This document shows positions 1 to 25,615 of a stretch of DNA of 25,615 nt, piece after piece. The DNA comes from Okeania sp. GTDB taxonomy: Bacteria > Cyanobacteriota > Cyanobacteriia > Cyanobacteriales > Microcoleaceae. Numbering within the stretch: position 1 is the first letter of the stretch; each line of letters starts with the position of its first letter. The notes below the pieces were generated by a model. It was not told the DNA's origin. It was given only the letters and a program-made list of their open reading frames with translations, and did not search any database. The stretch spans positions 1-25,615 of the forward strand of contig NZ_JAYKGW010000112.1 in the NCBI RefSeq assembly GCF_035285525.1. The letters run 5' to 3'. The position numbers and the translations under genes are program-made.

Positions 1-212
1 AGGTTTATATAAAGTGTGAAAATAACCATGAAAATTTTACTTAAAACCCACCCCTAATATTTGTGAAGGCAGGTTTATATAAAGTGTGAAAATAACCATG
101 AAAATTCTGGTGAAAACCCACCCCTAATATTTGTGAAGGCAGGTTTATATAAAGTGTGAAAATAACCATGAAAATTCTATTGAAAACCCGCCCCTACTAT
201 CCTACAAAATAA
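1..212. repeat. 70-bp tandem repeat with three units (1-70, 71-140, 141-about 205); the array is cut by the window start
   Basis: Units 1 and 2 are identical except for 4 substitutions, all within unit positions 37-42. Unit 3 diverges after about nt 189. Each unit contains ATG AAA ATT NNN NNN AAA ACC CAC CCC TAA. Confidence 0.95.
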
Positions 213-4868: not shown

Positions 4869-4985
4869 ACCAATTATTAATGGATAATGGATAATGGATA
4901 ATTTATAATTGCTAATGGATAATGAATAATGGTAATCATTCAGCTATTAGCTAGCCCTTTATTAATGAATAATGGATAATTAATA
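4869..4985. repeat. ATGGATA-heptamer-rich spacer between the SBP paralogs, duplicated at 6360-6455
   Basis: The run taaaccaattattaatggataatgg...ggtaatcattcagctattagctagccctttattaatgaa...ggataattaataATG is nearly identical after both SBP stop codons. Confidence 0.85.
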
Positions 4986-8670: not shown

Positions 8671-8722
8671 GGAAGAAGGAAGGAAGAAGAAGAAATAAGG
8701 AAGAAGCCAGAAGGCAGAAGCT
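8671..8722. repeat. purine-rich GGAAGAA-type tract directly after the kinase stop codon
   Basis: The sequence ggaagaaggaaggaagaagaagaaataaggaagaagccagaaggcagaagc begins immediately after the TAA at 8668-8670. Confidence 0.75.
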
Positions 8723-9103
8723 TTAAGAGAATAAAAAACCTAATATTACGGTAGATATTCCTCCAACTTTTACACAAATGATACCAACGGAAATAATATA
8801 ATTAATAATTTCTGAATAATATTGTCAGCATTCAGCATTCCGCAGAAAATACTTACATAATATTTGATAATGTATAGCGTTTCACAGAGCTATAAGGTAC
8901 ATCTATTTTTATTTTTGTCCTAAATGAAATCTCTATTTCTGTAAATATCAAAATTAATGCAGTTTGTTTGTGGGTAGACCAAACTTATAATTTTCAACAT
9001 TATTTCACATTACTTCACAACATCTGTTACCATAGTTAAAAAAAGGTTAAGATATTTCTGGCCAAAAAAAAGGGTATCAAGATTCCAGTTTCAACCGGAA
9101 AAA

Positions 9104-9145
9104 CTGATAACTGATAACTGATAACTGATAACTGATAACTAATAA
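9104..9145. repeat. (CTGATAA)x6 heptamer STRR array ending 5 nt before the purF ATG
   Basis: There are five perfect CTGATAA units plus one CTAATAA unit. Shorter copies of the same word lie before trpB (16826-16839) and at 19972-19986 on the other strand. Confidence 0.95.
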
Positions 9146-9150
9146 CTAAA

Positions 9151-10614
9151 ATGGATACAGAGCAATATTTAGAAAATTACCCCGAAATAGATAAACCGCA
9201 AGAAGCTTGTGGAGTGTTCGGGATTTATGCCCCAGGAGAAGATATAGCTAAACTTACCTATTTTGGTTTGTATGCTCTACAGCACCGAGGTCAAGAGTCA
9301 GCAGGAATTGCTACTTTTCAAGATGATCAACTATACATACACAAGGGAATGGGGCTAGTATCTCAGGTATTTAAGGAGTCTGTCCTACAACAATTACCAG
9401 GCAACTTAGGGATTGGTCATACTCGCTATTCTACTACTGGTTCTAGTCATATTAGAAATTCTCAACCTGCTGTGGTTGATACTCAGTTAGGTTCATTAGC
9501 TATAGCACATAATGGTAATCTTGTCAATACAGTAGATTTAAGGGAAGAATTAATCAAACGTGGGTGTGATTTTAATACCACTACAGATTCAGAAATGATT
9601 GCCTTAGCGATCGCCACAGAAGTAAAAATGGGCAAAACTTGGCTAGAAGCTGCTATTAGTGCTTTTCACCTCTGTGAGGGAGCCTTCAGTTTAACCATTG
9701 GTACTCCAGAAGGTGTGATGGGAGTACGAGACCCCCACGGTATAAGACCTCTGGTGATTGGTATTCTGGAAGATATAAACCCAAAAAGATATGTCCTCGC
9801 TTCAGAAACCTGTGCATTAGATATTATTGGTGCAGGATATCTGCGGGATGTGGAACCAGGAGAGTTAGTTTGGATTACAGAAGAAGGTATGGCTTCTTTC
9901 CACTGGAATCAAAAACCTCAGAGGAAACTGTGTGTGTTTGAAATGATTTATTTTGCCCGTCCCGATAGTATGATGGAAGGGAATAGTTTATATACCTACA
10001 GACTCAGAATTGGACGGCAGTTAGCCAAAGAATCCTATGTAGACGCTGATATGGTGATAGGTGTTCCTGATTCTGGCATTCCCGCGGCGATCGGTTTTTC
10101 CCAAGAATCTGGTATTCCTTATGGAGAAGGATTAATAAAAAATCGGTATGTTGGTCGTACTTTTATTCAACCAACTCAGCACATGAGGGAATCAGGTATT
10201 CGTATGAAACTTAATCCCCTCAAAGATGTGTTGGAAGGTAAAAGAATAATTATAGTTGATGACTCAATTGTTCGGGGTAATACCAGCAAGAAAATTGTTA
10301 AAGCTTTACGAGATGCTGGTGCCAAAGAAGTCCATGCCAGAATTTCTTCCCCAGCAGTAACTCATCCCTGTTTTTATGGACTTGACACAGATAACCAAGA
10401 ACAATTAATAGGAGCAACAAAATCAGTAACAGAAATTGCTGAACAAATAGGTGTTGACTCTCTAGTATATTTGAGTTGGGAGGGAATGTTGACTTTAACA
10501 GAACAAGATCCTAAAACTTTTTGTTCTGCCTGTTTTACTGGTGACTATCCTATTCCTTTATCAGAAGAATTAAAGCGTTCCAAATTAATTTTGGAAAACA
10601 TAGTTCAAGTTTAA
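9151..10614 (+). CDS. purF: amidophosphoribosyltransferase (glutamine PRPP amidotransferase)
   Basis: A propeptide precedes the Ntn nucleophile in CGVFGI. Other family blocks are ALQHRGQESAGIA, GIGHTRYSTTG and the PRPP loop IIVDDSIVRGNTS. The Fe-S Cys pattern is present (CVFEMIYFARPDS, HPCFYGLD, FCSACFTGDYP). Confidence 0.95.
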   Translation: MDTEQYLENYPEIDKPQEACGVFGIYAPGEDIAKLTYFGLYALQHRGQESAGIATFQDDQLYIHKGMGLVSQVFKESVLQQLPGNLGIGHTRYSTTGSSHIRNSQPAVVDTQLGSLAIAHNGNLVNTVDLREELIKRGCDFNTTTDSEMIALAIATEVKMGKTWLEAAISAFHLCEGAFSLTIGTPEGVMGVRDPHGIRPLVIGILEDINPKRYVLASETCALDIIGAGYLRDVEPGELVWITEEGMASFHWNQKPQRKLCVFEMIYFARPDSMMEGNSLYTYRLRIGRQLAKESYVDADMVIGVPDSGIPAAIGFSQESGIPYGEGLIKNRYVGRTFIQPTQHMRESGIRMKLNPLKDVLEGKRIIIVDDSIVRGNTSKKIVKALRDAGAKEVHARISSPAVTHPCFYGLDTDNQEQLIGATKSVTEIAEQIGVDSLVYLSWEGMLTLTEQDPKTFCSACFTGDYPIPLSEELKRSKLILENIVQV

Positions 10615-10623
10615 GAGAGAAGA

Positions 10624-10684
10624 GAAGAAGGAAGAAGGAAGAAGGAAGAAGGAAGAAGGAAGAAGGAAGAAGGAAGAAGGAAGG
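10624..10684. repeat. (GAAGAAG)x8 perfect heptamer array plus a partial unit
   Basis: Phase was counted directly: 8 exact 7-nt units span 10624-10679. The array starts 10 nt after the purF stop. Confidence 0.95.
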
Positions 10685-11445: not shown

Positions 11446-11598
11446 AATAATTAATAATTAATAATTAATAATTACCTCTTTTGATAAAGAAGAGAATTGA
11501 CAAAAAGGAATTTTTTTCTCTTATCTTAGTCGATTATATATGGCGTTTCGCTGGGGAAAGCTTTCCTTACGGAATGCTATCGCAAATTCTAATTACCG
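11446..11598 (+). mobile_element. MITE-like element, copy M4 of the family also seen at 13557, 15004(-) and 18080
   Basis: It has the family layout: heptamer array, then ATTACCTC, then a short hairpin (ctcttttgataaagaagag), then AAAAGGAA-T-run, then a core, then aatt..attaccg. The core carries a short relative of the GC-rich insert of M1 (ggcgtttcgctgggg...ggaatgctatcgc). Boundaries are approximate. Confidence 0.5.
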
Positions 11599-11665: not shown

Positions 11666-13291
11666 ATGAATAAAAAACAGGAATCATCCTTCTGGAAATC
11701 AATGACTAATCAAGCATCAAAAGTCAGAGAAAATTTTAGCAAAGAAGTATCTAAAGCAAGTAAATCAATCAGTGAGCAAGCCGCAGAAGTAACCAAGAAG
11801 AAAGCATCAGAAATGGAAGAAGCTATTAGCAATAAAGCATCGAATGTTAGTAAATATTTTCGAGAAAGTACCCAAAAATATACTGGGAAAAACCAGAAAG
11901 TTAATTCTGAAGTATGGCAAGAAACAGAAAATAATTTAGAGCAAGAAGAAATATATCATATTTTTATTGGTTATCAGACTGCTAATCAGGGAAGCACTCA
12001 GAAAGTTACTCTAAAATCAGGTAAAAGTTATAACGTTAGAATTCGCCCTAATAGTACGGAAGGTTCAACTTTACGACTACAAAAATGTGGTTTACAAGGT
12101 AATGATGCCTTTCTAGTTTTACATACTTTTTATAATCCCGAATTAAACCTAGACCGTCGAATAAATAGTTTAGTAATTCGTGCTTCAATTTATGACAGAA
12201 GTAAGACTAGATGTTTAGAAGCTTATAACAGAATTAATGCTGGTTTATATACTTATGATTTAGCAGCAATGAATTTATTAGATTTTCTTGTAGAGTTATC
12301 AAATATAGATTCATTAGTTGGTTTGCGCTACAGAATAGCCAGTGAAAATTCTCGGTGGGTTGGTATTGATAAAGGTTTGGAACAAGTTTTAGATTCTAGT
12401 AATTTAATGGAAGTTGAAAAACATAATTTGAAAGGAAGTTATATCTTTATTAAATCTGGAGAACCTCTACCTAATCTTGATAAATTTAGACAGTTAAATA
12501 CAATTATTTTAAATTCAGCGATCGCTCCAGGATTAAAAGATAAATATTTATTAGCAAGTGCAACTTCTATGGCAACCAGAATAGATATTTTAATCCTCAA
12601 TTTAATTTATAATAGTACGGAAATAGATCAGAATCAGCATGGTAAATATTTATCTGTTTATCAACAACTTAGAGAAGGTGTAAAAGTAGATAATGAAGTT
12701 CTAGAAAATTTAGATACTTTAATTTTTCAAGCTGAAATTCCCCAGATTTGTAAAATTGTATATCAGCTTTTAAGAGATAGATATTTTGAATCAGAATTAG
12801 AAGTAAATCAAAATAATTTCCATACAGCTTTTAGCAAATTGAAGAAAGCAGAAAAATTTGTAAAAAAGGCAGAAAATTCAGAAAAAATTACCAACAGTTT
12901 TGGTAATATTGCTATTCAAAAAGGTATGTTAATAGCAGGAATGGATGATGCTGTAATTAATGGTGGTGTGGGAGTATTAGCAGGAGTAAAAGTTTTAAAA
13001 GGCGGAGAAGCTTTAATTGGAGCAGTAGGCTTAGTAGTGATCGCTGCGACTTTAGAAACCAGTACGCAGGAGAAAATAAAATTAGGAATTACTGAAGAAG
13101 GTAATTTTTCTGGAGAAGTTGCTTATAGTGGAATTATAAATGCTATTAATCAAGTTAGTTGGGTTATTGGTAATAAAACAGAAAGAAAATTAGAACAAGA
13201 ATTTGATGTTTTGAAGATGTTTAAAGGGAATCAAAATAGGCAGGAAATTTTACAAGAATTGGAAACTAAATTGTATACTGCAAATCCATAA
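11666..13291 (+). CDS. hypothetical protein with a charged repeat N-terminus, a DnaJ-C-terminal-like beta segment, a helical region, and a Gly/Ala/Val-rich glycine-zipper hydrophobic segment
   Basis: It is a long open frame in very AT-rich DNA. Residues 95-155 (IYHIFIGYQTANQGSTQKVTLKSGKSYNVRIRPNSTEGSTLRLQKCGLQGNDAFLVLHTF) resemble the DnaJ CTD pattern. Residues 411-463 read GNIAIQKGMLIAGMDDAVINGGVGVLAGVKVLKGGEALIGAVGLVVIAATLE. I do not recognise a family. Confidence 0.75.
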   Translation: MNKKQESSFWKSMTNQASKVRENFSKEVSKASKSISEQAAEVTKKKASEMEEAISNKASNVSKYFRESTQKYTGKNQKVNSEVWQETENNLEQEEIYHIFIGYQTANQGSTQKVTLKSGKSYNVRIRPNSTEGSTLRLQKCGLQGNDAFLVLHTFYNPELNLDRRINSLVIRASIYDRSKTRCLEAYNRINAGLYTYDLAAMNLLDFLVELSNIDSLVGLRYRIASENSRWVGIDKGLEQVLDSSNLMEVEKHNLKGSYIFIKSGEPLPNLDKFRQLNTIILNSAIAPGLKDKYLLASATSMATRIDILILNLIYNSTEIDQNQHGKYLSVYQQLREGVKVDNEVLENLDTLIFQAEIPQICKIVYQLLRDRYFESELEVNQNNFHTAFSKLKKAEKFVKKAENSEKITNSFGNIAIQKGMLIAGMDDAVINGGVGVLAGVKVLKGGEALIGAVGLVVIAATLETSTQEKIKLGITEEGNFSGEVAYSGIINAINQVSWVIGNKTERKLEQEFDVLKMFKGNQNRQEILQELETKLYTANP

Positions 13292-13556: not shown

Positions 13557-13884
13557 CGTTCAATAATGGATAATGGATAATTACCTCTCCCTAAAACGGA
13601 TAGGATTGAATAAAAGGAAAAAATTTATTTCTCAAGGGGAGATTAGATATGGTTAGGGAACCGATCCATCTCACCCTGGGGGAAGCTCGGCTTTTTCCTC
13701 CGGAATGCTTCGCTTTCCATGTGGCGCAGCGTTTTCGTATAGGGAATGCTGCGCTTTCCATCTCGGCTTAAGGGCCGTTTCGCTGCGCGACATATAAAGC
13801 GAAGCGCAAAAACGACCGCTTTTTGCCCTATCCAAGGGGAGACTTCAAGGCGCGAATTATTTAATTATTTAATTATTAATTATT
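13557..13884 (+). mobile_element. MITE-like element copy M1, inserted in vapC and itself carrying a nested insert
   Basis: The left part is (ATGGATA)n-ATTACCTCTCCCTAAAA..GGATTGAATAAAAGGAAAAAATTTATTT and the right part is AATTATTTAATTATTTAATTATTAATTATT. These match 18080-18204 and the reverse complement of 15004-15106. It is flanked by CG on both sides. Confidence 0.7.
13642..13833. mobile_element. 192-bp GC-rich insert nested in M1, flanked by a 9-bp direct repeat AAGGGGAGA
   Basis: AAGGGGAGA occurs at 13633-13641 and 13834-13842. The interior has the direct repeat GGAATGCT(T/G)CGCTTTCCAT twice. It also has long-range complements: GCTTCGCTTT (13706-13715) with AAAGCGAAGC (13795-13804), and GCGCAGCG with CGCTGCGC. 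Its composition contrasts sharply with the surroundings. Confidence 0.55.
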
Positions 13885-15003: not shown

Positions 15004-15106
15004 AATAATTAATAATTAAATAATTAAACAATTCAGCTTTATTGACCTCTCCTTTTAGGGAGAAGTAATTATCCATTATCCATTATCCATTATCCATTAC
15101 CCATTA
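15004..15106 (-). mobile_element. MITE-like element copy M3 (short form), abutting the ubiX start codon
   Basis: The reverse complement reads (AATGGAT)n-AATTACTTCTCCCTAAAAGGAGAGGTCAATAAA...TTTAATTATTTAATTATTAATTATT. Its heptamer end finishes at 15106 and the ubiX ATG is at 15107. Confidence 0.6.
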
Positions 15107-15730
15107 ATGAAATCTATATCTCAACTACCCATAGTTATCGGTGTTACAGGAGCATCAGGACTCATTTACGCTGTCAGAAGTATTAAATATTTACTAGCAG
15201 CTAACTACACCATTGACTTAGTAGCATCAAAAGCATCCTATTCAGTGTGGCAAGCAGAACAAAATATTAAAATGCCTGCTGAAACAACTAAACAAGAAAT
15301 ATTCTGGCGGGAACAAGCTGGAGAAGAAAACAATGGCAAACTCCGTTGTCATCCTTGGCAAGATATCGGGGCAAATATTGCCAGTGGTTCCTATCGAACT
15401 CAGGGTATGATAATTATTCCTTGTAGCATGGGAACTGCTAGTAAGTTAGCTGCTGGATTCAGTTCAGATTTATTAGAGCGGGCAGCAGATGTACAATTAA
15501 AGGAAGGTGGAAAATTAGTTATCGTACCACGAGAAACACCTTTGAGCTTAATTCATTTACGAAACTTAACTACTCTGGCAGAAGCAGGAGCCAGGATTGT
15601 TCCAGCAATTCCCGCGTGGTATCATAATCCCCAAACCATAGAAGATTTGGTAGACTTTGTGGTAGCTCGTGCTTTAGACCAATTTGATTTAGATTGTGTT
15701 CCTCTGAAACGGTGGGTTGGCCATGAATAG
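15107..15730 (+). CDS. ubiX: flavin prenyltransferase UbiX (prenylated-FMN synthase)
   Basis: Family blocks are present: VIGVTGASGLIYAVR, MIIIPCSMGTASKLAAGFSSDLLERAADVQLKEGGKLVIVPRETPLSLIHLRN and GARIVPAIPAWYH. Confidence 0.9.
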   Translation: MKSISQLPIVIGVTGASGLIYAVRSIKYLLAANYTIDLVASKASYSVWQAEQNIKMPAETTKQEIFWREQAGEENNGKLRCHPWQDIGANIASGSYRTQGMIIIPCSMGTASKLAAGFSSDLLERAADVQLKEGGKLVIVPRETPLSLIHLRNLTTLAEAGARIVPAIPAWYHNPQTIEDLVDFVVARALDQFDLDCVPLKRWVGHE

Positions 15731-16382
15731 AAATCCGGATTTATTATTACCAGCAACTTCAATAGTCATTATCGGTGGGTTGGCCTTATTTACTTGGCAA
15801 AATTGGTCCCCTAGTTTGTCCTTAACTTTTCTGGGGTTAACATCTATACCTCTACCTGTTTCTATATTAGTTTTGGGCGGTTTTGTTGCAGGTATCGCTA
15901 CTTACTCATTGATATATAGTATTTTTGAACTTTCAAATTATCTGTTAACACTAAATTTAGAACCTGCCAGACCTCAATCTAGAAATATTCAGGATCGAGA
16001 GAAACGAAGGGAAAGTACGAAGACATACATACAATCTGATGAAATCTCAGATTCTCAAAGTTTTATTAACCTCAATAAAGATAAGGAAACAGGGGAGGAA
16101 GATGAAAATTTTGATGACTGGGAAGAAGGACCTCCTAAAGTTAAAAAATCTTGGGATAATAGCACAAAAGAAGAAGATATTGAAGAGTCAGAAGAAGCAA
16201 AAACGGAGTCTAAGTCTGGTTCTGTTTATTCTTATGGTTATCGGGAACCCAGTGGTTCTGGGGTTGGTCAAACTGAGTCTGTATATGATGCAGATTTTCG
16301 GGTGATTACTCCACCACCGCCTAGAGATACATCTAAATCTAGTGAGGATAAAGAGACTGAATCTGATGAGACAATCAAGTGA
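15723..16382 (+). CDS. membrane protein with a two-TM LapA/DUF1049-like N-terminus and a long acidic Ser/Glu/Lys-rich tail
   Basis: The ATG at 15723 overlaps the ubiX stop; the ORF track starts at a TTG at 15717. Two hydrophobic helices are separated by QNWSPSLSLTF. The C-terminal ~130 aa are low-complexity and acidic. Confidence 0.7.
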   Translation: MNRNPDLLLPATSIVIIGGLALFTWQNWSPSLSLTFLGLTSIPLPVSILVLGGFVAGIATYSLIYSIFELSNYLLTLNLEPARPQSRNIQDREKRRESTKTYIQSDEISDSQSFINLNKDKETGEEDENFDDWEEGPPKVKKSWDNSTKEEDIEESEEAKTESKSGSVYSYGYREPSGSGVGQTESVYDADFRVITPPPPRDTSKSSEDKETESDETIK

Positions 16383-16403: not shown

Positions 16404-16550
16404 GTGACACAACCTTCTAGGTTGTTACAGCAAAAGAAGGCTGTGCTACAGGAATTTGTAACACAACCTTTTGTTACAGCAAAAGAAGGCTGTGCTACAG
16501 GAATTTGTAACACAACCTTTTGTTACAGCCTAGAAGGCTGTGTTACAAAT
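16404..16550. repeat. 49/54-bp tandem repeat, about 2.9 units
   Basis: Units start at 16404 (54 bp), 16458 (49 bp) and 16507 (partial). The unit reads GTAACACAACCTTTTGTTACAGCAAAAGAAGGCTGTGCTACAGGAATTT and has small internal hairpins. Confidence 0.85.
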
Positions 16551-16839: not shown

Positions 16840-18069
16840 ATGACTGTTACACCTTTAAATCCAACTACAACTCAACAACCAGATTCCTTGGGCAGATATG
16901 GCCAGTTTGGCGGTAAATATGTCCCAGAAACATTAATGCCTGCCCTCTTTCAACTAGAGGCAGCTTACAAACAATATAGTCAAGACCCGACTTTTCAACA
17001 AGAACTACAACAATTATTAAAAGATTATGTAGGTCGTCCTAGTCCTCTCTATTTTGCCGAACGTCTGACTGCTCATTATGCTAGACCAGATGGCACAGGA
17101 CCACAAATATATTTGAAACGGGAAGATCTCAACCATACTGGAGCGCACAAAATTAATAATGCTTTAGCACAAGCTTTATTAGCTTGCAGAATGGGCAAAA
17201 AACGGATTATTGCGGAAACAGGTGCAGGTCAACATGGTGTTGCTACTGCTACAGTTTGCGCTCGGTTTGGTTTGGAGTGTGTGATCTATATGGGCGTTCA
17301 CGATATGGAACGTCAAGCTCTGAATGTATTCAGAATGCAACTGATGGGAGCGGATGTGCGGCCAGTAGAAGCTGGTACGGGTACTCTGAAAGATGCGACT
17401 TCGGAAGCTATTCGCGACTGGGTGACAAATGTGGAGACTACTCATTATATTTTGGGTTCGGTTGCCGGACCTCATCCTTACCCAATGATGGTGCGTGATT
17501 TTCATGGGGTTATTGGGGTGGAAACCCGCGCTCAATGTTTGGAAAAGTGGGGCGGTTTACCTCATATTTTGATGGCGTGTGTTGGCGGTGGTTCTAATGC
17601 GATGGGTTTATTCCATGAGTTTATGAATGATACGTCAGTGCGAATGATCGGTGTGGAAGCTGCTGGCGAGGGAGTTGATACTAATAAGCACGCTGCAACT
17701 TTGACTCTGGGTCGTGTGGGTGTGTTGCATGGAGCGATGAGTTATTTGTTGCAGGATGAGGAAGGTCAGATAATAGAACCCCATTCTATTAGTGCTGGTT
17801 TAGATTATCCTGGAGTCGGTCCTGAACATAGTTTTTTGAAGGATAGCGGTAGAGCGGAGTATTATAGTGTGACTGATAAGGAAGCGGTGGATGCTTTTCA
17901 ACGTTTGTCTCAGTTGGAGGGTATTATTCCGGCGCTGGAAACTGCTCATGCGATCGCTTATTTGGAAACTCTTTGTCCGCAGTTAAGTGGTAGTCCGCGT
18001 ATTGTGTTGAACTGTTCGGGACGTGGGGATAAGGATGTACAAACTGTGGCGAAGTTTTTGGAAGGATAG
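16840..18069 (+). CDS. trpB: tryptophan synthase beta chain
   Basis: The PLP-lysine motif HTGAHKINN is present, along with [20 protein letters not shown] and the [11 protein letters not shown] blocks. No trpA lies in the window. Confidence 0.95.
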
Positions 18070-18079
18070 TTAATTTTTT

Positions 18080-18204
18080 AATAATGGATAATTGATAATT
18101 ACTTTTTCCTAAAAGGAAGAGGATTAAATAAAAGGAAAAAATTTATTTTTTTCCCTTTTAAAAGGGAAGCTTTCAACCTTAATTATTTAATTATTTAATT
18201 ATTT
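18080..18204 (+). mobile_element. MITE-like element copy M2, without a nested insert
   Basis: It reads AATAATGGATAATTGATAATTACTTTTTCCTAAAAGGAAGAGGATTAAATAAAAGGAAAAAATTTATTT...TTTCCCTTTTAAAAGGGAA...AATTATTTAATTATTTAATTATTT. It begins 11 nt after the trpB stop. Confidence 0.6.
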
Positions 18205-18407: not shown

Positions 18408-19949
18408 CTAATTACTTTTCTTTGTTGTTTCCTTTTTTGTTTGATTAATAATTGCATCGCAAATATAGTCACATATTCCTTTAACATTCCACGAGTATTT
18501 CCCATCATTACCTGGTAAATTTACCTCCAGTTTTTCTAACTGAATTTTAAATTCTTTTTCTAGTGCCATTTGCAATTCCATTAATACCAATTTAAATTTC
18601 ATATTATCTAATTTATCTACACTAAAACTTGTCTCTAATTCAACTCTTTCTATATTAATTTTCAATTCCTGACTAATTACTTTTTTAACCCTTTCTAAGA
18701 TTTTACTTCTAACTAAAACTTTACTTCTAAGTTTATCGGCATTTTTTTCAGCATCTTTTGTAATTAACTTTAATCCTATTTCTGCAAACTGATTTTCCTC
18801 AAGACTTTCTATGATCTGACTATTTATTAACTCTTCTAATGTCCGATGATAGACTTTAAGAAGATAGGCTTTTATCATCTCTTTTCTGTACCCGACAGGA
18901 ATACCACCAATATTTTCTCCATACTCTTTTTCAATTTCAATTTCTTCTGAATAAACATAATATTTAGGAACTGAATTTTCCATAAACAACATTAAATATG
19001 GATATTCTTGATTATTTTTGGTTTGAACTTGACTCAACAAAACTAGGAATAGTTCATCTAAGTGAGTAAATACAATTCTTAGGTTAGAGGGCAAATCAAA
19101 TTTTTTGCAGTGAACAAGATTAATTTTATTTAACTCTAATTTTAAGTTTTCAGTTAAGAATTTAACAACTATTTTTTTGAAAATAATCAAGTCAAATAAA
19201 TCTCCAACTGTGGTATAAAGTATATTATCTTCCATCTCCAATGGAAATTCTTTTTTTAGTGCTTTAGCTAGAGGAGTATCAGAAAATTTTGTCTCAGTTG
19301 TTAATCCTAAATTATCGATCAGATGACTATCTAAAGTTATTTCCTCTAAACTGACTTTTAAGTATTTACTAATCATATTTTGTACCTTCATAAATTCTGG
19401 AAGCTGATTTTTATCTCTGCCAGACTTTTCTAAAGCTATCTCTATATTTTTAATTCTTTTGGCTTCAATTATCCGTTTTTCTTCCTCAGCTTTCCTGCGA
19501 ATTTCTGATTCAATACGGAGTTTTTCTTCTTCAACTTTCCTCCGCCTTTCTACTTCAAGTACCTTGGTTTTTCTGATTATTTCCTCTTGAATATATTGAA
19601 CAATAAATTCTTTGGAAATTTCCACAAATTCTGATTGAGAAATATTTTCTCTTGTCTGAGTATTTCTGGCTTTATCTATTATTTCATCATAACCATAAAT
19701 TATGAATTTTTTAGTCTCATTTTCTTCAGCATAAACTGTATATTTAGGATTTCCTTTTTCTAACAAAATGAGCAAATATTGATACTTTTGATTATTCTTA
19801 GTTTGGAGTTGATTTAACAAAATTATTTCTAATTGATCTGGATAATTAAATATCTTGATATTTGACTGAGATGGTAAATTAAATTTTTTCCGAGCGACCA
19901 GATTAGAGTTAGAAATATTTTCTCTGATTTCAGTAATTTTTCTGGGCAT
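18408..19949 (-). CDS. hypothetical protein with a two-fold internal duplication of (novel N-domain, helical linker, ACP-like module lacking the conserved Ser)
   Basis: It is a 513-codon open frame in AT-rich DNA. Residues 17-87 align with residues 278-354. Residues 187-255 and 415-500 fit an acyl-carrier-protein helix pattern, but they have LTTE and DNM in place of DSL. Residues 130-165 are coiled-coil KE-rich. Confidence 0.8.
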   Translation of the reverse strand: MPRKITEIRENISNSNLVARKKFNLPSQSNIKIFNYPDQLEIILLNQLQTKNNQKYQYLLILLEKGNPKYTVYAEENETKKFIIYGYDEIIDKARNTQTRENISQSEFVEISKEFIVQYIQEEIIRKTKVLEVERRRKVEEEKLRIESEIRRKAEEEKRIIEAKRIKNIEIALEKSGRDKNQLPEFMKVQNMISKYLKVSLEEITLDSHLIDNLGLTTETKFSDTPLAKALKKEFPLEMEDNILYTTVGDLFDLIIFKKIVVKFLTENLKLELNKINLVHCKKFDLPSNLRIVFTHLDELFLVLLSQVQTKNNQEYPYLMLFMENSVPKYYVYSEEIEIEKEYGENIGGIPVGYRKEMIKAYLLKVYHRTLEELINSQIIESLEENQFAEIGLKLITKDAEKNADKLRSKVLVRSKILERVKKVISQELKINIERVELETSFSVDKLDNMKFKLVLMELQMALEKEFKIQLEKLEVNLPGNDGKYSWNVKGICDYICDAIINQTKKETTKKSN

Positions 19950-20117
19950 TTTTTCTAGGAGTGTTATTTTAGCTATCAGTTATCAGTAAACATCCAATAA
20001 ATTTGGAGCCTTGAAATACTGATTTATCGGGAACCGTGTTAAATATTTTTTATCCCCTTAAAAAGGGAGGCACATACCCTCATTTTTTGGTAAAATTATA
20101 AAAAATTTAGGCGATAA

Positions 20118-21367
20118 AATTATATCATTTTAAACTTATCTAATAAATATTTTATAGCGATCGCCAAATTTTACTTTTCTAATAATCATTAAACAAAGCT
20201 TGTTTTAATTATTCTTATATCTACGGAAATTCCATGAAAATTTTCTACTGATAAAATTTAGAAAAGTTGTTGATAAATGTTATGATATTTATCGTTAATA
20301 CAAGATAATTTTTGATAAAGGATAATGCCAGCTACACCAGAAAGTATCCACAGTTTTCTTAACTATTGTCGAGAATATATTAGTGGTAGAGAAAGAAGTG
20401 ATAGTCAGTTATTTTTAGATAGATTTTTTCAAGCATTTGGATATGCAGGTTTAAAAGAAGCAAGTGCTAAATGTGAAGAGGTAGTTCCTGATGGTAGTCG
20501 CCAGGGAAAAACGGGATTTGCCGATTTATTTTGGCAGGGTGGAAATCTAGCTTCAGTATTAGTTGAAATGAAATCTAAACAGATAAAAAATCTCCATAAA
20601 TATTACGGTCAAACTTGGGAATATGCTAGAAATTTAACACCACAACCAAAATATGTAATTCTCTGTAACTTTGAAGAATTTTGGATTGATGATTTTGACA
20701 GACTTTGTTGATACTCCTATTGATATTATTTCCTTAATTGAATTATATCATTTTAAACTTATCTAATAAATATTTGTTAGCGATCGCCCTCGTTTTACCT
20801 TTCTAATAATTATTAATCGGAGGGGGTACTGATTATTCTTATATGTACAGATATTCCGTGGAACATTTATACTCATAAAATGTATAAAATTCCTCGATAA
20901 ATGGTATTATATTTATCGTTAATACAAGATAATTTTTGATCAAGGATAATGCCAGCTACACCAGAAAGTATCCACAGTTTTCTTAACTATTGTCGAGAAT
21001 ATATTAGTGGTAGAGAAAGAAGTGATGGTTGGTTATTTTTAAATAGATTTTTTCAAGCATTCGGATATGGAGGTTTAAAAGAAGCAGGTGCTAAATATAA
21101 AGAGATAGTTTCTGATGGTAGTCGCCAGGGAAAAACAGGATTTGCCGATTTATTTTGGTCGCGTCAAAATCTAGCTTCAGTATTAGTTGAAATGAAATCT
21201 AAACGGATAAAAAATCTCCATAAACATTACGGTCAAGCTTGGGAATATGCTAGAAATTTAACACCACGACCAAAGTATGTAATTCTCTGTAATTTTGAAG
21301 AGTTTTGGATTTATGATTTTGACAAATTAGTTGATACTCCTATGGATATTATTCCTTTAGTAGAATT
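20118..21367. repeat. tandem duplication (period about 624 bp) of the promoter region plus the first ~140 codons of the MmeI-family gene
   Basis: Copy 1 spans about 20118-20740 and copy 2 about 20741-21367. The two ATGs at 20325 and 20949 are 624 nt apart. The junction has GAATT/AAATT microhomology at about 20738-20744. The copies are diverged: many substitutions in the coding part and more in the upstream part. Confidence 0.9.
20325..20711 (+). pseudogene. truncated, frameshifted duplicate of the MmeI-family N-terminal (PD-D/ExK nuclease) domain
   Basis: The 128-aa product aligns with residues 1-125 of the 953-aa protein, including FADLFW...LVEMKSK. A 1-nt insertion near 20697-20703 (gacagactttgttgat versus gacaaattagttgat) leads to a stop. 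Confidence 0.8.
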
Positions 21368-23810
21368 GCCGGAACGTTTGAATGTTTTTACCTTTATGGA
21401 ACACACTTCAACTATTCCTAAATTTCGTAATTCTCAAGTTGTAGAAGTAACGAAAAGAGCTGCTGAAAGAATGGGAGAATTATTTCAGAAACTTAAAGCT
21501 AGAAGTGGGAGTAATTTTACTGTTGAAGAAGCTCAAATATTTGTACTCCAATCTGTCTTGGCAATGTTTGCTCAATGGCGAGGTTTATTACCAGAAAATC
21601 TGTTTACTAATTCTATTCAAAAATGTCTAAAAGGAGAAAGCACTTATGACATTTTATCTGGTCGTTTATTCCAAGAAATGAATAATCCAGGAATTACAAA
21701 AGTTGGTATGTGTAAAGGTGTAGATTTTTTCAAGGTTGGATTATTTGCGACTATTCCTCAAATTGAATTACATCGAGAAGAATTAGAATATTTAGAAGCT
21801 TCAGCGCAGGAAGATTGGAGTAAAGTTCGACCTACAATTTTTGGTAATATTTTTCAAAGTATGATGGATGAAAAAGAACGTCATGCAGGAGGGATTCACT
21901 TTACTTCAGAAAATGATATTATGAAAATAATTCGACCGACGATTAGTAAATTTTGGGAAGACAAAATTGAGGGAGCTAATACTGTTAAAGAATTAGAATT
22001 TATCAAAACAGAAATGGGGAATTATCGAGTTCTCGATCCTGCTTGTGGTTCGGGAAATTTTCTTTATATGGCTTATCAAGAATTGAAACTTTCCGAACAG
22101 TTATTATTAGATAAATTAGCCGAAATTTCTCAATCATCTCAGTTAGAAAAGGGGTTTGTTACGCCCTTACAATTTTATGGCATAGACAATAATTCTTTTG
22201 CCGTGGAACTAGCACGAGTAACATTAACTATTGCTCGTAAAGTTGCCATTGATAAACTAGGAATAAATGAAACAGTTTTACCTTTAGATACCCTCAACAA
22301 AAATATTGTTTGTAAGGATGCTTTATTTTGTAAATGGCCTCAAGTAGATGCCATTATTGGCAATCCTCCTTTTCAGTCTAAAAATAAAATGCAGGTCGAA
22401 TTAGGTCGTAGTTATCTTAATAAATTAAGAGAGAAATATTCAGAAGTTCCAGGGAGAGCAGATTATTGTGTTTATTGGTTTAGAAAAAGCCATGATGAAT
22501 TACCAGAAAATGGTCGTGCTGGTTTAGTAGGAACTAATACAATACGGCAAAATTATTCTCGCGAAGGAGGGTTAGATTATATTGTTAATTCGGGTACTAT
22601 TACGGAAGCTGTTTCGAGTCAACCTTGGTCTGAAGATGCCGTAGTTTATGTTTCAATTGTTAATTGGGTTAAGGGAAAAGTAATTGGTAAAAAGAAGCTT
22701 TATAATCAAATTGGAGATAAAGAAAATAACTCTTGGGAAATGATGGAACTAGACTATATTAATTCTGCTCTTTCTGCAGGATTTGATGTTACTCAAGCTA
22801 AACGATTAAAGATTAATTCTGATTCCCAAAGTTGTTATCAAGGGCAAACTCACGGACACGAAGGTTTTTTATTAACTCCAGCAGAAGCAAAAGAAATGAT
22901 GGTTAGTTCTAGTAAAAATTCTGAGGTAATTTTTCCTTATTTAACTGGGGATAATTTATTGTCAAGTATTCCACCACAACCACAACGATATGTAATAGAT
23001 TTTTACCCACGAGAAATAGACGAAGCTAAAAAATATAAACTGCCATTTCAACGAATTAAAAAATTAGTTTTACCCATCAGAGAATTAGCAGCAGAAACAG
23101 AAATTAAACGGAATGAAATAGCTCGTAAAAAAAATCCTCAAGCCAAAGTTAATAGACATCATCAAAACTTTCTAGCTAAGTGGTGGTTGCTTTCTTATTC
23201 CAGACCAGAATTAATCCGCAAAATTGCAAATTTATCTCGATATATTGTTTGTAGTAGAGTCACAAAAAGACCTATTTTTGAATTTATTAATTCTGCTATT
23301 CGACCTAGCGATGCTTTACAAGTTTTCCCACTTGATGATGACTATTCTTTTGGTATTTTACAATCAAGTATTCATTGGCTTTGGCTTACCGAACGTTGTT
23401 CAACTTTAAAAGGTGATTTTCGTTATACATCTAATAGTGTTTTTGATACATTTCCCTGGCCGCAAAATCCAACTTCAGAACAAATTATTAATGTGGCAAA
23501 TGCAGCCGTAGAATTAATCAAAGTTCGTCGTCAACTTATGGATAAAAATCAAATTAGCTTGAGAGAAATTTATCAAAATTTAGAGCAAACCAAAAACACA
23601 AAATTACACCAAGCAGAGAAAAATCTTGATAATAAAGTATGTTCTGCTTATGGAATAAAAAATAATGAAGAACCTCTGAAATTTCTCTTTGAACTTAATT
23701 TAGAAGTAGCCAAAATGGAAACTGATAATCAATCAGTTATTTCTCCAGGAATACCGCCTTTTATCACAAATAATAGTAAATTAATTAGTGATAGTTGTAT
23801 AATGGTTTAA
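20949..23810 (+). CDS. MmeI-family single-chain type IIL/IIG restriction-modification enzyme (nuclease, N6-adenine methyltransferase and target-recognition domain)
   Basis: The N-terminal nuclease motif D-x12-ExK is present (FADLFWSRQNLASVLVEMKSK). Other family blocks are AAERMGELF, RPTIFGNIFQSMMD and IHFTSENDIMKIIRP. The methyltransferase motifs are SAM motif I VLDPACGSGNFL and motif IV IIGNPPFQSK. The C-terminal block is YTSNSVFDTFPWP. Confidence 0.9.
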   Translation: MPATPESIHSFLNYCREYISGRERSDGWLFLNRFFQAFGYGGLKEAGAKYKEIVSDGSRQGKTGFADLFWSRQNLASVLVEMKSKRIKNLHKHYGQAWEYARNLTPRPKYVILCNFEEFWIYDFDKLVDTPMDIIPLVELPERLNVFTFMEHTSTIPKFRNSQVVEVTKRAAERMGELFQKLKARSGSNFTVEEAQIFVLQSVLAMFAQWRGLLPENLFTNSIQKCLKGESTYDILSGRLFQEMNNPGITKVGMCKGVDFFKVGLFATIPQIELHREELEYLEASAQEDWSKVRPTIFGNIFQSMMDEKERHAGGIHFTSENDIMKIIRPTISKFWEDKIEGANTVKELEFIKTEMGNYRVLDPACGSGNFLYMAYQELKLSEQLLLDKLAEISQSSQLEKGFVTPLQFYGIDNNSFAVELARVTLTIARKVAIDKLGINETVLPLDTLNKNIVCKDALFCKWPQVDAIIGNPPFQSKNKMQVELGRSYLNKLREKYSEVPGRADYCVYWFRKSHDELPENGRAGLVGTNTIRQNYSREGGLDYIVNSGTITEAVSSQPWSEDAVVYVSIVNWVKGKVIGKKKLYNQIGDKENNSWEMMELDYINSALSAGFDVTQAKRLKINSDSQSCYQGQTHGHEGFLLTPAEAKEMMVSSSKNSEVIFPYLTGDNLLSSIPPQPQRYVIDFYPREIDEAKKYKLPFQRIKKLVLPIRELAAETEIKRNEIARKKNPQAKVNRHHQNFLAKWWLLSYSRPELIRKIANLSRYIVCSRVTKRPIFEFINSAIRPSDALQVFPLDDDYSFGILQSSIHWLWLTERCSTLKGDFRYTSNSVFDTFPWPQNPTSEQIINVANAAVELIKVRRQLMDKNQISLREIYQNLEQTKNTKLHQAEKNLDNKVCSAYGIKNNEEPLKFLFELNLEVAKMETDNQSVISPGIPPFITNNSKLISDSCIMV

Positions 23811-24361: not shown

Positions 24362-25306
24362 ATGAATCATAAATATTTTCAACCAATTTTCTGGAGTCTC
24401 ACGATATTTTTGAGTAGTTGTAATTATCAACAATTAACTCAAAACTTACCAGAAATGCTTAATCTCAAACAAATCTATATTTCTATATCAAATGCAGCAG
24501 TTCCACAAGATATTAATCAGTTAGAACAATCTGTATTTGCTCAAATAAATCAATATCGAAAATCTCAAAGTTTACCCCCTCTCCAGTGGGATAATACTAT
24601 TGCTCAACAAGCAAAAATTCATGCTCAACAAATGGCAAATGGAGAAACAACTTTTAGCCATGATGGATTTCAACAAAGAGTAGAAATAATCAAGCAAAAA
24701 ATTCCTTACGGAGGTGGTGCAGAAAACATAGCTCAAAATATGGGTTATAGTAATCCTGGAGAAGTAGCTGTAGAAGGTTGGATTAAAAGTCCTGGTCATC
24801 ATCAAAATATAGTAGGTGACTATGATTTAACAGGTATTGGTATTGCTCAAAATTCTCAAGGAACATATTACTTGAATCAACTTTTTATTAAAACGAGAGC
24901 TTCACTTAATATTAATATTAATCAGTTGGAAAAATCTGTATTTGCTCAAATAAATCAATATCGAAAATCTCAAAGTTTACCCCCTCTCAAGTGGGATAAT
25001 ACTATTGCTCAACAAGCAAAAATTCATGCTCAACAAATGGCGAATGGAGAAACAACTTTTAGCCATGATGGATTTCAACAAAGAGTAGAAATAGTCAAGC
25101 AAAAAATTCCTTACCAGGGTGCTGGGGAAAATATAGCTAATAATCTGGGTTATAATAATCCTGGAGAAGTAGCTGTAGAAGGTTGGATTAAAAGTCCTGG
25201 TCATCATCAAAATATAGTAGGTAACTATGATTTGACAGGTATTGGTATTGCTCAAAATTCTGAAGGAACATATTACTTGAATCAGCTTTTTATTAAGACT
25301 AGATAG
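24362..25306 (+). CDS. secreted lipoprotein with two tandem CAP/SCP/PR-1 (YkwD-like) domains
   Basis: The lipobox is FLSSC. Each half carries QINQYRKSQSLPPL.WDN..AQQAKIHAQQMA...FSH...GENIA...GWIKSPGHHQNI...GIGIA. The internal repeat has a 405-nt period (24512-24898 and 24917-25303). Confidence 0.85.
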   Translation: MNHKYFQPIFWSLTIFLSSCNYQQLTQNLPEMLNLKQIYISISNAAVPQDINQLEQSVFAQINQYRKSQSLPPLQWDNTIAQQAKIHAQQMANGETTFSHDGFQQRVEIIKQKIPYGGGAENIAQNMGYSNPGEVAVEGWIKSPGHHQNIVGDYDLTGIGIAQNSQGTYYLNQLFIKTRASLNININQLEKSVFAQINQYRKSQSLPPLKWDNTIAQQAKIHAQQMANGETTFSHDGFQQRVEIVKQKIPYQGAGENIANNLGYNNPGEVAVEGWIKSPGHHQNIVGNYDLTGIGIAQNSEGTYYLNQLFIKTR

Positions 25307-25470
25307 GAAAGATTAATTAATAATTAATAATTAATCATGGATAATTAATCATGGATAATTGATAATGAAAACTATCTCTAATTATCAATTATCCATTGGT
25401 AAGTTAATCTAGTACTGTATTGTTTCACCTAAAACTGTGCATTAGCTTTTAACTTGAAAATTCTGACTTT

Positions 25471-25615
25471 TAACTGTTGAATGAAAATCTCTGACTTAGG
25501 AATTCTTATTTTTAACTGTTGAATGAAAATCTGTGACTTAGGAATTCTTATTTTTAACTGTTGAATGAAAATCTGTGACTTAGGAATTCTTATTTTTAAC
25601 TGTTGAATGAAAATC
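25471..25615. repeat. 42-bp tandem repeat, at least 3.4 units, running off the window end
   Basis: Units start at 25471, 25513, 25555 and 25597. The unit is TAACTGTTGAATGAAAATCT(C/G)TGACTTAGGAATTCTTATTTT. A degenerate partial unit lies just upstream at about 25450-25470. Confidence 0.95.

What the first reader, a model, noticed from the sequence alone, without database searches (positions are those of the whole stretch)
18408..19949. Orphan 513-aa protein built as two copies of (unknown domain, linker, serine-less ACP-like module), head-to-head with an MmeI-type R-M gene
Two segments of the translation align. The first is aa 17-87 (LVARKKFNLPSQSNIKIFNYPDQLEIILLNQLQTKNNQKYQYLLILLEKGNPKYTVYAEE). 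The second is aa 278-354 (LVHCKKFDLPSNLRIVFTHLDELFLVLLSQVQTKNNQEYPYLMLFMENSVPKYYVYSEE). Each is followed by a helical linker; the first linker is an RRRKVEEEKLRIESEIRRKAEEEKR coiled coil. Each linker is followed by a ~65-85-aa segment with the acyl-carrier-protein helix pattern. Module 1 reads ISKYLKVSLEEITLDSHLIDNLGL...ALKKEFPLEMED..TTVGDLFDLI. Module 2 reads VKKVISQELKINIERVELETSFSVDKLDNMKFKLVLMELQMALEKEFKIQL...ICDYICDAI. In both modules the phosphopantetheine-accepting DSL serine is missing (LTTE and DNM). There is no synthase, PPTase or other carrier-dependent enzyme nearby. The gene sits 375 bp upstream of, and divergent from, the duplicated MmeI-family locus, in an islet bounded by trpB and a CAP-domain gene. 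I cannot place the N-domain in any family. I infer a non-carrier ACP-fold adaptor that is possibly linked to defence or the R-M locus. Of everything in this window, this gene is the most likely to be part of an undescribed system.
Basis: partly seen in the sequence, partly recalled or inferred. Interest (0 to 1): 0.7.

Follow-up and report, generated by a model that had tools for sequence, protein, structure and literature searches.

The report
Okeania-only duplicated protein with dead ACP modules
This is a real gene, found almost only in the marine cyanobacterium Okeania, for a protein made of two copies of an unplaced beta-rich domain, a helical stalk and an acyl-carrier-protein-derived module that has lost its cofactor serine; it is unrelated to the neighbouring restriction enzyme and its function is unknown.

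Summary
ORF 18408-19949(-) encodes 513 aa made of two homologous ~255-aa units (BLASTP E=6e-21). Each unit ends in a module that matches FAS-type ACPs over their full length but lacks the phosphopantetheine serine.

- No coupling to MmeI. Across eight Okeania loci every combination of intact or broken gene with intact or deleted MmeI occurs. A single-unit relative lies in an unrelated context. PADLOC, phage, plasmid and viral searches are empty.
- The family is tiny. An exhaustive HMMER search of 1.84 billion representatives gave 13 hits: Okeania fragments, one single-unit metagenomic lineage, and a cyanobacterial 'coiled coil + SGRDK + ACP-like' group that shares only the stalk and ACP part and usually also lacks the serine.
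- The N-domain (pLDDT 80-90) has no sequence or Foldseek match.
- Six of the eight Okeania loci (five distinct alleles) carry in-frame TAA stops, mostly in linkers. Domain cores still avoid stops (1 observed, ~10.5 expected if neutral), so the gene looks split rather than dead.

Best reading: a weakly constrained, lineage-specific, non-carrier binding or scaffold protein. It is an uncharacterised variant of the ACP superfamily, not a defence component. Interest is moderate to low.

The parts
18408..19949 (-). Whole gene, 513 codons plus stop. Identical to an NCBI 'hypothetical protein [Okeania sp.]', which UniRef names 'acyl carrier protein'.
   Evidence: Zero stops over 162 nt differences to the ortholog, against about 10 expected if neutral.
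19638..19901 (-). N-domain copy 1 (aa 17-104). Beta-rich, with the motifs NLPS..I.F, LLNQ.QTKNNQ.Y.YL and PKY.VY.E. It lacks the 20-aa hairpin insert of copy 2.
   Evidence: Omega is 0.19 over aa 1-90.
19404..19637 (-). Helical stalk 1 (aa 105-182). It includes the charged coiled-coil-like run ERRRKVEEEKLRIESEIRRKAEEEKR and the ESGRDKNQ motif shared with the cyanobacterial coiled-coil/ACP group. In relatives, most stop codons fall here.
19176..19403 (-). ACP-like module 1 (aa 183-258). Thr218 sits at the Ser36 position of AcpP (Lys in the ortholog).
19122..19175 (-). Junction between the two units (aa 259-276). Codon 267 (GAA) is TAA in five related loci.
18810..19121 (-). N-domain copy 2 (aa 277-380). 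AF2 predicts an antiparallel sheet with a long hairpin at pLDDT 80-90. No structural neighbour was found.
18714..18809 (-). Helical stalk 2 (aa 381-412), shorter and less charged than stalk 1.
18441..18713 (-). ACP-like module 2 (aa 413-503). Lys446 sits at the Ser36 position, and there is a ~19-aa insert (NLPGNDGKYSWNVKG) before the last helix.
   Evidence: Omega is 0.19 over aa 413-513.
19950..20324 (.). Divergent intergenic region shared with the MmeI_N fragment. It presumably holds the gene's promoter, which is inferred only. Part of it (from 20118) belongs to the 624-bp tandem duplication.
   Evidence: The promoter scan is no better than shuffles (20 found, 17.8 expected).

Best explanation
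The ORF is a genuine accessory gene under weak to moderate constraint, restricted to Okeania and one unidentified metagenomic lineage.

Origin: it arose by tandem duplication of a single-unit gene of the type still seen in P0012. That unit is a beta-rich N-domain, a helical stalk and a four-helix module derived from FAS-type AcpP.

The ACP modules have lost the phosphopantetheine serine: Thr/Lys in module 1 and Lys in module 2. The residue is Asp in the single-unit relatives and Ala, Gly or Glu in the sister cyanobacterial group. They therefore cannot carry acyl groups.

Inferred mechanism, not shown: the protein acts without catalysis as a binding or scaffold protein. The charged helical stalk would mediate self-association, and the ACP-derived modules and beta-domains would serve as protein- or ligand-binding surfaces.

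The gene works independently of the adjacent MmeI restriction-modification gene. The units are separable: in most Okeania genomes nonsense mutations in the linkers cut the gene into two or three ORFs, while the domain cores stay protected from stops and frameshifts.
For: Shown:
- Internal duplication, E=6e-21, over the whole unit.
- ACP homology over the full ACP length, E=3.7e-8, with both modules hit.
- Serine site replaced, with a 3-aa insertion.
- hhalign links the SGRDK segment plus the ACP module to the cyanobacterial coiled-coil/ACP proteins at 98.5% probability, E=1.8e-15. That group matches E. coli ACP at about 1e-20 and has ADALD, ADGLD, ADECD or ADELD at the site.
- P0012 is a 254-aa single unit with the unit-1 leader (ENISNSNLV) and the unit-2 hairpin insert.

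Selection:
- Omega is 0.38 in frame, against 0.53 and 1.31 out of frame.
- A/T sites at codon position 2 change 2-3 times more slowly than at positions 1 and 3.
- There are 0 stops over 162 differences, with ~10 expected under neutrality.

Fission:
- 8 of 9 stop positions lie in the leader, stalk 1, junction or tail, which hold 25.7% of the mutational opportunity (P=1.3e-4).
- 1 core stop is observed against 10.5+-3.1 expected since the clade ancestor; 0 of 2000 simulations gave as few.
- Most indels are in frame: 6, 18, 33, 3 and 6 nt.

Independence from MmeI.
Against: - No experiment or expression data bears on function. 'Scaffold/binding' is inferred by exclusion.
- AF2 did not fold the ACP part confidently (pLDDT 45-75), so the four-helix fold rests on sequence homology alone.
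- Omega of about 0.4 is high for a functional protein (trpB in the same genomes: 0.03-0.075).
- There is no conserved restart codon after the codon-267 stop. TTG follows one codon later in L002, but the first start lies 18-52 codons downstream in L003, L005 and L006.
- Two lesions are destructive: a stop at codon 64 inside N1 in L005, and an 8-nt deletion that removes the last ACP2 helix in L006.
- Alleles recombine, so shared stops may be younger than the divergence they sit in. That would weaken the post-fission selection argument.
Confidence: 0.45

Rival explanations
1. The gene is a decaying orphan. It was functional in the past, is now being lost across Okeania, and has no current role. 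The window copy is simply one that has not yet been hit.
For: - Six of eight Okeania loci (five distinct alleles) carry in-frame stops. Further ORF fragments P0003, P0008, P0010, P0011 and P0024 come from other samples.
- The P0012 lineage also has truncated remnants, P0019 and P0015.
- Omega is about 0.4.
- L005 and L006 carry destructive lesions.
- No conserved restart codon follows the stops.
Against: - Domain cores are strongly depleted of stops relative to neutral simulation: 1 observed against 10.5 expected.
- The coding signature (position-2 conservation, lowest omega in the true frame) is as strong within the stop-bearing clade as between the intact copies.
- Stops cluster in linkers (P=1.3e-4).
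- In-frame indels predominate.
Confidence: 0.27
2. The protein is an accessory, regulator or anti-restriction partner of the divergently transcribed MmeI-type IIG restriction-modification enzyme, or part of another defence system.
For: - The gene lies head-to-head with MmeI across a 375-bp shared intergenic region.
- In all eight Okeania loci at least a remnant of the MmeI 5' end lies next to the gene's upstream region.
Against: - All four combinations of intact or broken gene with intact or deleted MmeI occur.
- The intact gene persists with only a 52-aa MmeI remnant in L001.
- P0012 and the sister family have unrelated neighbourhoods.
- There is no PADLOC hit and no phage, plasmid or viral homolog.
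- MmeI-type enzymes are single-polypeptide systems (established knowledge).
Confidence: 0.06
3. It is a true carrier protein. A non-canonical residue (Thr218 or the conserved Ser223 in module 1) would be modified by an unlinked PPTase, and the protein would serve a synthase encoded elsewhere.
For: - Pfam PP-binding scores above its gathering threshold.
- Annotation pipelines name the family 'acyl carrier protein'.
- Ser223 is conserved in all orthologs.
- One sister protein, P0016, keeps DSL in its first ACP-like module.
Against: - The residue at the canonical position is not conserved even between 81%-identical orthologs (Thr against Lys).
- Module 2 has no Ser in the loop.
- A 3-aa insertion disrupts the DSL turn.
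- NCBIfam scores are far below the equivalog cutoffs, 44 against 71 bits.
- No synthase or PPTase lies in the window.
- Relatives have Asp, Ala, Gly or Glu at the site.
Confidence: 0.05
4. The in-frame TAA codons in relatives are read through or bypassed, so the full-length two-unit protein is still made in the 'broken' strains.
For: - The stops that interrupt the reading frame upstream of the C-terminal tail (codons 64, 114, 134, 142, 149, 267) are all GAA to TAA changes and preserve the frame.
- Constraint continues downstream of them, including stretches before any canonical restart codon.
Against: - No TAA recoding is known in cyanobacteria (general knowledge; not tested here).
- L005 has a 1-nt deletion and L006 an 8-nt deletion that readthrough cannot rescue.
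- GAA to TAA is simply the commonest path to a stop in a Glu-rich, AT-rich gene (spectrum).
Confidence: 0.05

Closest known systems
Type II FAS acyl carrier protein AcpP (Pfam PF00550 PP-binding; e.g. E. coli 1acp, T. thermophilus 1x3o)
   Same: Both C-terminal modules are homologous over the full ACP length, helices 1-4. The helix-2 'ALEKEF/ALKKEF' stretch and the helix-1 'VKKVISQEL' stretch are recognisable.
   Different: - The phosphopantetheine serine is absent and a 3-aa insertion sits at the DSL turn.
- Helix 2 is more basic.
- Scores fall below the NCBIfam cutoffs.
- The modules are fused to a stalk and a beta-domain and are duplicated.
- There is no FAS, PKS, NRPS or PPTase context.
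Uncharacterised cyanobacterial 'helical N-domain + charged coiled coil + SGRDK + ACP-like' proteins. Examples are Dulcicalothrix desertica PCC 7102 WP_127079892.1 (P0014) and Lyngbya sp. CCY1209 WP_324702342.1 (P0016, 4 ACP-like modules), both auto-named 'acyl carrier protein'.
   Same: - The coiled-coil stalk, the ESGRDK motif and the ACP-like module align at hhalign probability 98.5%, E=1.8e-15.
- The serine is usually replaced (Ala, Gly, Glu).
- There is an insert before the last helix, and modules can be repeated.
- No conserved neighbours are seen.
   Different: - Their N-terminal domain is helical (YxxxILKxxxNxYLD...VWxxAxxIYxQSG) and unrelated to the Okeania beta-domain.
- Their ACP module is much closer to canonical ACP (E about 1e-20).
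P0012, a 254-aa single-unit metagenomic protein (JGI 3300081957/3300081922)
   Same: It has the same N-domain, stalk and serine-less ACP module (GDDDLD), at 37-46% identity (E=3e-26).
   Different: - It has one unit, not two.
- It has a long insert in the ACP loop and Asp at the serine position.
- Its genomic context differs: SOUL, MazE/PIN and MscS genes.
ACPs used as structural subunits rather than carriers (mitochondrial ACP in complex I and with LYR proteins)
   Same: This is a precedent for the ACP fold serving as a protein-binding module. The PDB hits include NDUFAB1 chains.
   Different: Those ACPs keep the serine and their acyl-pantetheine is part of the interface (general knowledge). 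Here the serine is gone. The resemblance is functional analogy only and was not tested.

Membership tests
PP-binding / acyl carrier protein (PF00550) | Profile score above the curated threshold | tested here: met
   Pfam scores 26.6 bits against a cutoff of 20.8, but on a partial match at aa 188-216. The NCBIfam ACP models reach 44 bits or less against cutoffs of 65-106, so those are not met.
PP-binding / acyl carrier protein (PF00550) | Conserved (D/H)S(L/I) serine at the start of helix 2 that accepts 4'-phosphopantetheine | tested here: not met
   The position is Thr218 (Lys in the ortholog) in module 1 and Lys446 in module 2, with a 3-aa insertion at the site.
PP-binding / acyl carrier protein (PF00550) | Four-helix bundle fold | tested here: inconclusive
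   AF2 modelled the region as long helices at pLDDT 45-75. Sequence homology covers all four helices.
PP-binding / acyl carrier protein (PF00550) | Actual phosphopantetheinylation and acyl carriage | not testable with these tools
   This needs mass spectrometry after co-expression with a PPTase.
PP-binding / acyl carrier protein (PF00550) | Genomic association with a synthase, ligase or PPTase | tested here: not met
   None was found in the window or in loci L001-L008.
Accessory of a type IIG (MmeI-like) R-M system or other defence system | Match to a known defence-protein model | tested here: not met
   PADLOC gives 0 families at E<=1, while the neighbouring gene scores 1265 bits as REase_MTase_IIG.
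Accessory of a type IIG (MmeI-like) R-M system or other defence system | Conserved co-occurrence and co-retention with the R-M gene | tested here: not met
   All four intact/broken combinations occur. P0012 has no R-M neighbour.
Cyanobacterial coiled-coil + SGRDK + ACP-like proteins (unnamed group, P0014 type) | Stalk, SGRDK motif and ACP-like module | tested here: met
   hhalign probability 98.5%, E=1.8e-15, aligning query positions 169-258 to target positions 120-223.
Cyanobacterial coiled-coil + SGRDK + ACP-like proteins (unnamed group, P0014 type) | Helical N-terminal domain (ILK..N.YLD...VW..A..IY.QSG) | tested here: not met
   The HMMER and hhalign matches start only at the stalk. The Okeania N-domain is beta-rich.
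Known folds for the N-domain (Hsp70 substrate-binding domain, SAS-6/XRCC4 head, MS2 coat, UTRA) | Significant structural superposition | tested here: not met
   The best Foldseek E-values are 1.1e-2 (PDB) and 1.3e-2 (BFVD), with TM <=0.25 among the listed PDB matches and no significant match in either library. The AlphaFold DB was not available.

The most novel reading that the evidence does not exclude
Cyanobacteria would hold an undescribed class of 'retired' acyl carrier proteins. These are AcpP-derived modules with the cofactor serine replaced, mounted on coiled-coil stalks, that act as non-carrier binding modules, for example as decoys or regulators of ACP-dependent enzymes or as modular scaffolds. 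The Okeania branch would have attached them to a beta-domain with a new fold, duplicated the unit, and be able to function either fused or split into separate polypeptides.
Probability: 0.2. Interest if true: 0.6.

Novelty: new variant of a known kind. Interest (0 to 1): 0.33.

Why it matters
If the non-carrier reading is right, this protein and its cyanobacterial cousins are natural examples of the ACP fold being reused for something other than acyl carriage. Annotation pipelines currently name them all 'acyl carrier protein', which is probably wrong and could mislead searches for biosynthetic gene clusters in a genus mined for natural products.

The Okeania alleles also give a small natural experiment in gene fission: the same gene exists fused, split in two and split in three among close relatives, with the domain cores still constrained.

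The family is confined to one genus plus a metagenomic lineage. It has no conserved partners and no phenotype, so its wider importance is limited. It does not open a defence-system lead.

Tried and rejected
- **Family libraries.** Pfam, NCBIfam, PHROGs and PADLOC scans of the protein gave only ACP/PP-binding signals.
- **PDB sequence searches.** Profiles of the whole unit and of the N-domain alone gave only ACPs, and nothing for the N-domain.
- **AF2 on the full length.** With a 2-sequence alignment the model was unusable at pLDDT 38.8. It was replaced by a half-unit model built on 14 sequences.
- **Foldseek.** Searches against PDB and BFVD gave no hit at E<=1e-3. The top hits, DnaK substrate-binding domain and SAS-6 head plus coiled coil, have TM <=0.25 and were rejected as noise.
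- **Homolog searches.** Two further word-index searches with N-domain profiles returned only Okeania fragments.
- **Mobile-element link.** tblastn against plasmids and phages and a viral-contig scan found nothing, so a mobile or phage origin has no support.
- **Failed scans.** Locus scans with alignment A4 failed for lack of conserved columns and were redone with A6.
- **Simple pseudogene reading.** After finding three stops in O. hirsuta I first read the gene as a pseudogene. Omega inside the stop-bearing clade equals that of the intact pair, and neutral simulations predict about 10 times more core stops than are seen, so I revised this.
- **Raw omega as evidence.** I rejected taking omega 0.38 at face value and calibrated it with out-of-frame controls and per-position rates.
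- **Fusion hypothesis.** I tested whether the ~120-aa ORFs upstream of the sister-family genes are homologous to the Okeania N-domain. By inspection of their translations they do not resemble each other, and the Lyngbya ORF does not match the N-domain profile (hhalign probability 0.2%).
- **Foreign origin by composition.** The gene's GC is 27.6% against a window mean of 32%, but much of the window is about 30%, so this is not distinctive.
- **Literature.** Searches for DUF1493, serine-less ACPs and Okeania R-M found nothing relevant.
- **P0004 context.** The 90-kb contig that carries it could not be retrieved.
Full report
**1. What is in the sequence**

The window equals a 25,615-bp Okeania sp. 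contig. The protein is 100% identical to an NCBI 'hypothetical protein [Okeania sp.]' whose longest contig has that length.

ORF 18408..19949(-) encodes 513 aa. It lies between trpB (16840-18069, PALP) and the MmeI locus. That locus holds a 128-aa MmeI_N fragment at 20325-20711 and a complete 953-aa type IIG enzyme at 20949-23810. A CAP-domain gene follows at 24362-25306.

The two halves of the protein are homologous: BLASTP gives 32% identity, E=6e-21. With the ortholog added, the alignment runs through the whole ~255-aa unit (A2).

The C-terminal module of each unit is ACP-derived:
- Pfam PP-binding scores 26.6 bits against a cutoff of 20.8.
- NCBIfam ACP models hit aa 186-253 and aa 415-473 at E down to 1.4e-11, below the curated cutoffs.
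- The unit profile finds only ACPs in the PDB, end to end (1x3o_A, E=3.7e-8).

The carrier serine is missing. HMMER shows a 3-residue insertion exactly at GAD|SL. A direct alignment with E. coli AcpP puts Thr218 (Lys in the 81% ortholog) and Lys446 at the Ser36 column.

**2. How wide the family is**

The word-index search of 5.8 billion proteins found only the protein itself and one 81%-identical metagenomic ortholog. An exhaustive HMMER scan of 1.84 billion cluster representatives gave 13 hits at E<=1e-3. They fall into three groups:
- Okeania ORF fragments.
- A single-unit lineage from JGI metagenomes: P0012 (254 aa, E=3e-26) plus the truncated P0019 and P0015.
- Cyanobacterial proteins (Dulcicalothrix P0014, Lyngbya P0016, and P0017, P0018, P0020, P0021) that match only from the charged stalk through an 'SGRDK' motif and the ACP-like module.

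hhalign confirms the link to the third group at 98.5% probability, E=1.8e-15. That group is clearly AcpP-derived (E about 1e-20 to E. coli ACP). It usually has Ala, Gly or Glu instead of the serine. Pipelines name all of these 'acyl carrier protein'.

P0012 combines the unit-1 leader (ENISNSNLV) with the unit-2 hairpin insert. It looks like the unduplicated ancestral form.

No relatives were found in phage, plasmid or IMG/VR collections.

**3. The N-domain**

There was no hit in Pfam, NCBIfam, PHROGs, PADLOC or PDB sequences.

With 14 aligned sequences, AF2 models unit 2 at mean pLDDT 73.7. The N-domain scores 80-90. It is predicted as an antiparallel sheet with a long hairpin (strands 41-51, 56-65, 68-88, 91-109 and 114-121 in unit numbering), followed by a long helix.

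Foldseek against PDB and BFVD gives nothing at E<=1e-3, and TM is <=0.25 among the listed PDB matches. The fold is unplaced. The AlphaFold DB could not be searched. The ACP part was poorly modelled, so its fold rests on sequence homology.

**4. Neighbourhood and the R-M hypothesis**

Eight Okeania loci share the arrangement trpB, the gene, MmeI or its remnant, then CAP.

| Locus | The gene | MmeI |
|---|---|---|
| Window | intact | intact |
| L001 | intact | 52-aa remnant |
| L006 | broken | >=783 aa, 89% identity, runs off the contig end |
| L002-L005 | broken | deleted, with the same aa73-to-aa840 breakpoint |
| L010 | broken | only a 5' remnant visible on the contig |

P0012 lies between a SOUL-domain gene and a MazE/PIN pair. 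P0014 and P0016 lie in further unrelated contexts. There is thus no conserved partner and no co-retention with MmeI. The defence link is not supported.

**5. Is it a live gene?**

Six of the eight Okeania loci (five distinct alleles, since L003 and L004 are identical) have in-frame TAA codons:
- Codon 267 is TAA in L002-L006.
- Codon 142 is TAA in L002-L005 and in L010.
- Private lesions: L002 has a stop at codon 134 and an 18-nt deletion. L005 has a stop at codon 64 and a 1-nt deletion. L006 has an 8-nt deletion. L010 has stops at codons 114 and 149 and a 33-nt in-frame deletion.

Three results argue against simple decay:
- Nei-Gojobori omega is 0.38 between the intact copies and 0.34-0.42 within the stop-bearing clade. 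The same alignments read out of frame give 0.5-1.4. A/T sites at codon position 2 change 2-3 times more slowly than at positions 1 and 3, in both sets.
- Eight of nine stop positions lie in the leader, stalk 1, unit junction or C-terminal tail. Those segments hold 25.7% of stop-reaching mutational paths (P=1.3e-4).
- Simulation with the empirical substitution spectrum predicts 10.5+-3.1 stop gains in domain cores over three stop-bearing lineages. One is observed, and 0 of 2000 simulations gave as few. It predicts ~10 stops between the two intact copies, where none is observed.

The gene has therefore been under purifying selection, and the domain cores appear still constrained after the interruptions. 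The simplest reading is fission at the linkers into single-unit or single-domain polypeptides. In L003 an 80-aa ORF starts exactly at Met187, the first residue of ACP module 1, and in L002 a TTG follows one codon after the codon-267 stop.

Caveats:
- The restart codon is not conserved.
- Two lesions are destructive.
- L010 is a recombinant mosaic, so shared stops may be younger than they look.
- Sequences that carry the codon-267 stop already differ within six codons of it, which argues against a recently spread short tract.

**6. Mechanism**

Shown:
- A duplicated unit.
- ACP ancestry.
- Loss of the carrier serine.
- No carrier-dependent enzyme nearby.
- Coding constraint.
- Independence from MmeI.

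Inferred: a non-catalytic binding or scaffold protein. Its charged stalk would mediate self-association, and its ACP-derived and beta modules would bind partners. The closest precedent is the structural use of ACP in mitochondrial complexes, which is general knowledge and analogy only. I give this 0.45.

Rivals are a decaying orphan (0.27), an R-M or defence accessory (0.06), a true carrier using a non-canonical residue (0.05) and stop-codon readthrough (0.05).

**7. Comparison and novelty**

The protein belongs to the ACP/PP-binding superfamily by homology, but it fails that family's defining functional feature, the serine. I therefore do not file it as an acyl carrier protein.

It is closest to an unnamed, uncharacterised cyanobacterial coiled-coil/ACP-like group, from which it differs in its N-domain.

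I rate it a new variant of a known kind. Interest is 0.33. The misannotation point and the fused-versus-split allelic series are worth noting. However, the family is tiny, has no conserved partners and suggests no testable phenotype.

The two-unit architecture fits a genome prone to tandem duplication. The two neighbours carry younger duplications, of 624 bp at the MmeI 5' end and 405 bp inside the CAP gene.

Noticed in passing
window 20118-20744 and 20741-21367: A 624-bp tandem duplication (88-96% identity) covers the MmeI promoter region and 5' end. It creates the 128-aa MmeI_N fragment ORF (20325-20711) upstream of the complete 953-aa gene.
   Followed up: partly
window 24510-25303: A 405-bp tandem duplication (94-95% identity) lies inside the CAP-domain gene and gives a 314-aa protein with two CAP domains. 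Okeania relatives have a 182-188-aa single-domain version.
   Followed up: partly
window 4878-4936, 8669-8720, 9102-9147, 10613-10683, 15068-15106, 25314-25366: There are many heptanucleotide tandem arrays (TAATGGA, AAGGAAG, AACTGAT, ATTATCC) in intergenic DNA. They resemble the short tandemly repeated repetitive sequences of filamentous cyanobacteria. One array type is also present in L001.
   Followed up: no
window 11450-11521, 13559-13630, 18077-18148: A dispersed ~72-nt element occurs in three copies at 68-100% identity. One copy lies just downstream of trpB next to the gene's 3' end. Copies also lie at the contig ends of L001 and in L002. It may be a small mobile or regulatory repeat.
   Followed up: no
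window 1-200, 16422-16547, 25459-25615: Longer tandem arrays of unknown meaning: 70 nt x 2.9, 49 nt x 2.6 (two copies 100% identical) and 42 nt x 3.7 at the contig end.
   Followed up: no
window 11666-13291 and 15717-16382: Two sizeable ORFs (541 aa and 221 aa) have no Pfam or PADLOC hit. The second overlaps the end of a Flavoprotein (PF02441) ORF at 15107-15730.
   Followed up: no
L005 10553-11800: In Okeania sp. SIO2C2 an IS605 OrfB/TnpB (Cas12f-like TNB) gene is inserted beside trpB at this locus. It is absent from the window and the other loci.
   Followed up: no
L010 370-1880 compared with L001 3187-4728: The L010 allele of the gene is a mosaic. It is identical to L001 over gene nt 1201-1350 but has 20 differences per 150 nt at nt 601-900. 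It also shares the codon-142 stop with the otherwise distant O. hirsuta clade. This is evidence of recombination between Okeania alleles.
   Followed up: partly
L002 9440-9714, L003 6525-6799, L004 843-1117, L005 6511-6752: The MmeI deletion in four Okeania assemblies has the same breakpoint, joining aa 73 to aa 840, so it is a single ancestral deletion. L001 has an independent, larger deletion that keeps only aa 1-52.
   Followed up: partly
window 19633-19665 and 19906-19938: A 33-nt direct repeat (79% identity) lies within the gene. It corresponds to the peptide motif RENISNS (aa 9-15) recurring as RENISQS (aa 100-106). The leader helix before the N-domain therefore recurs after it.
   Followed up: no
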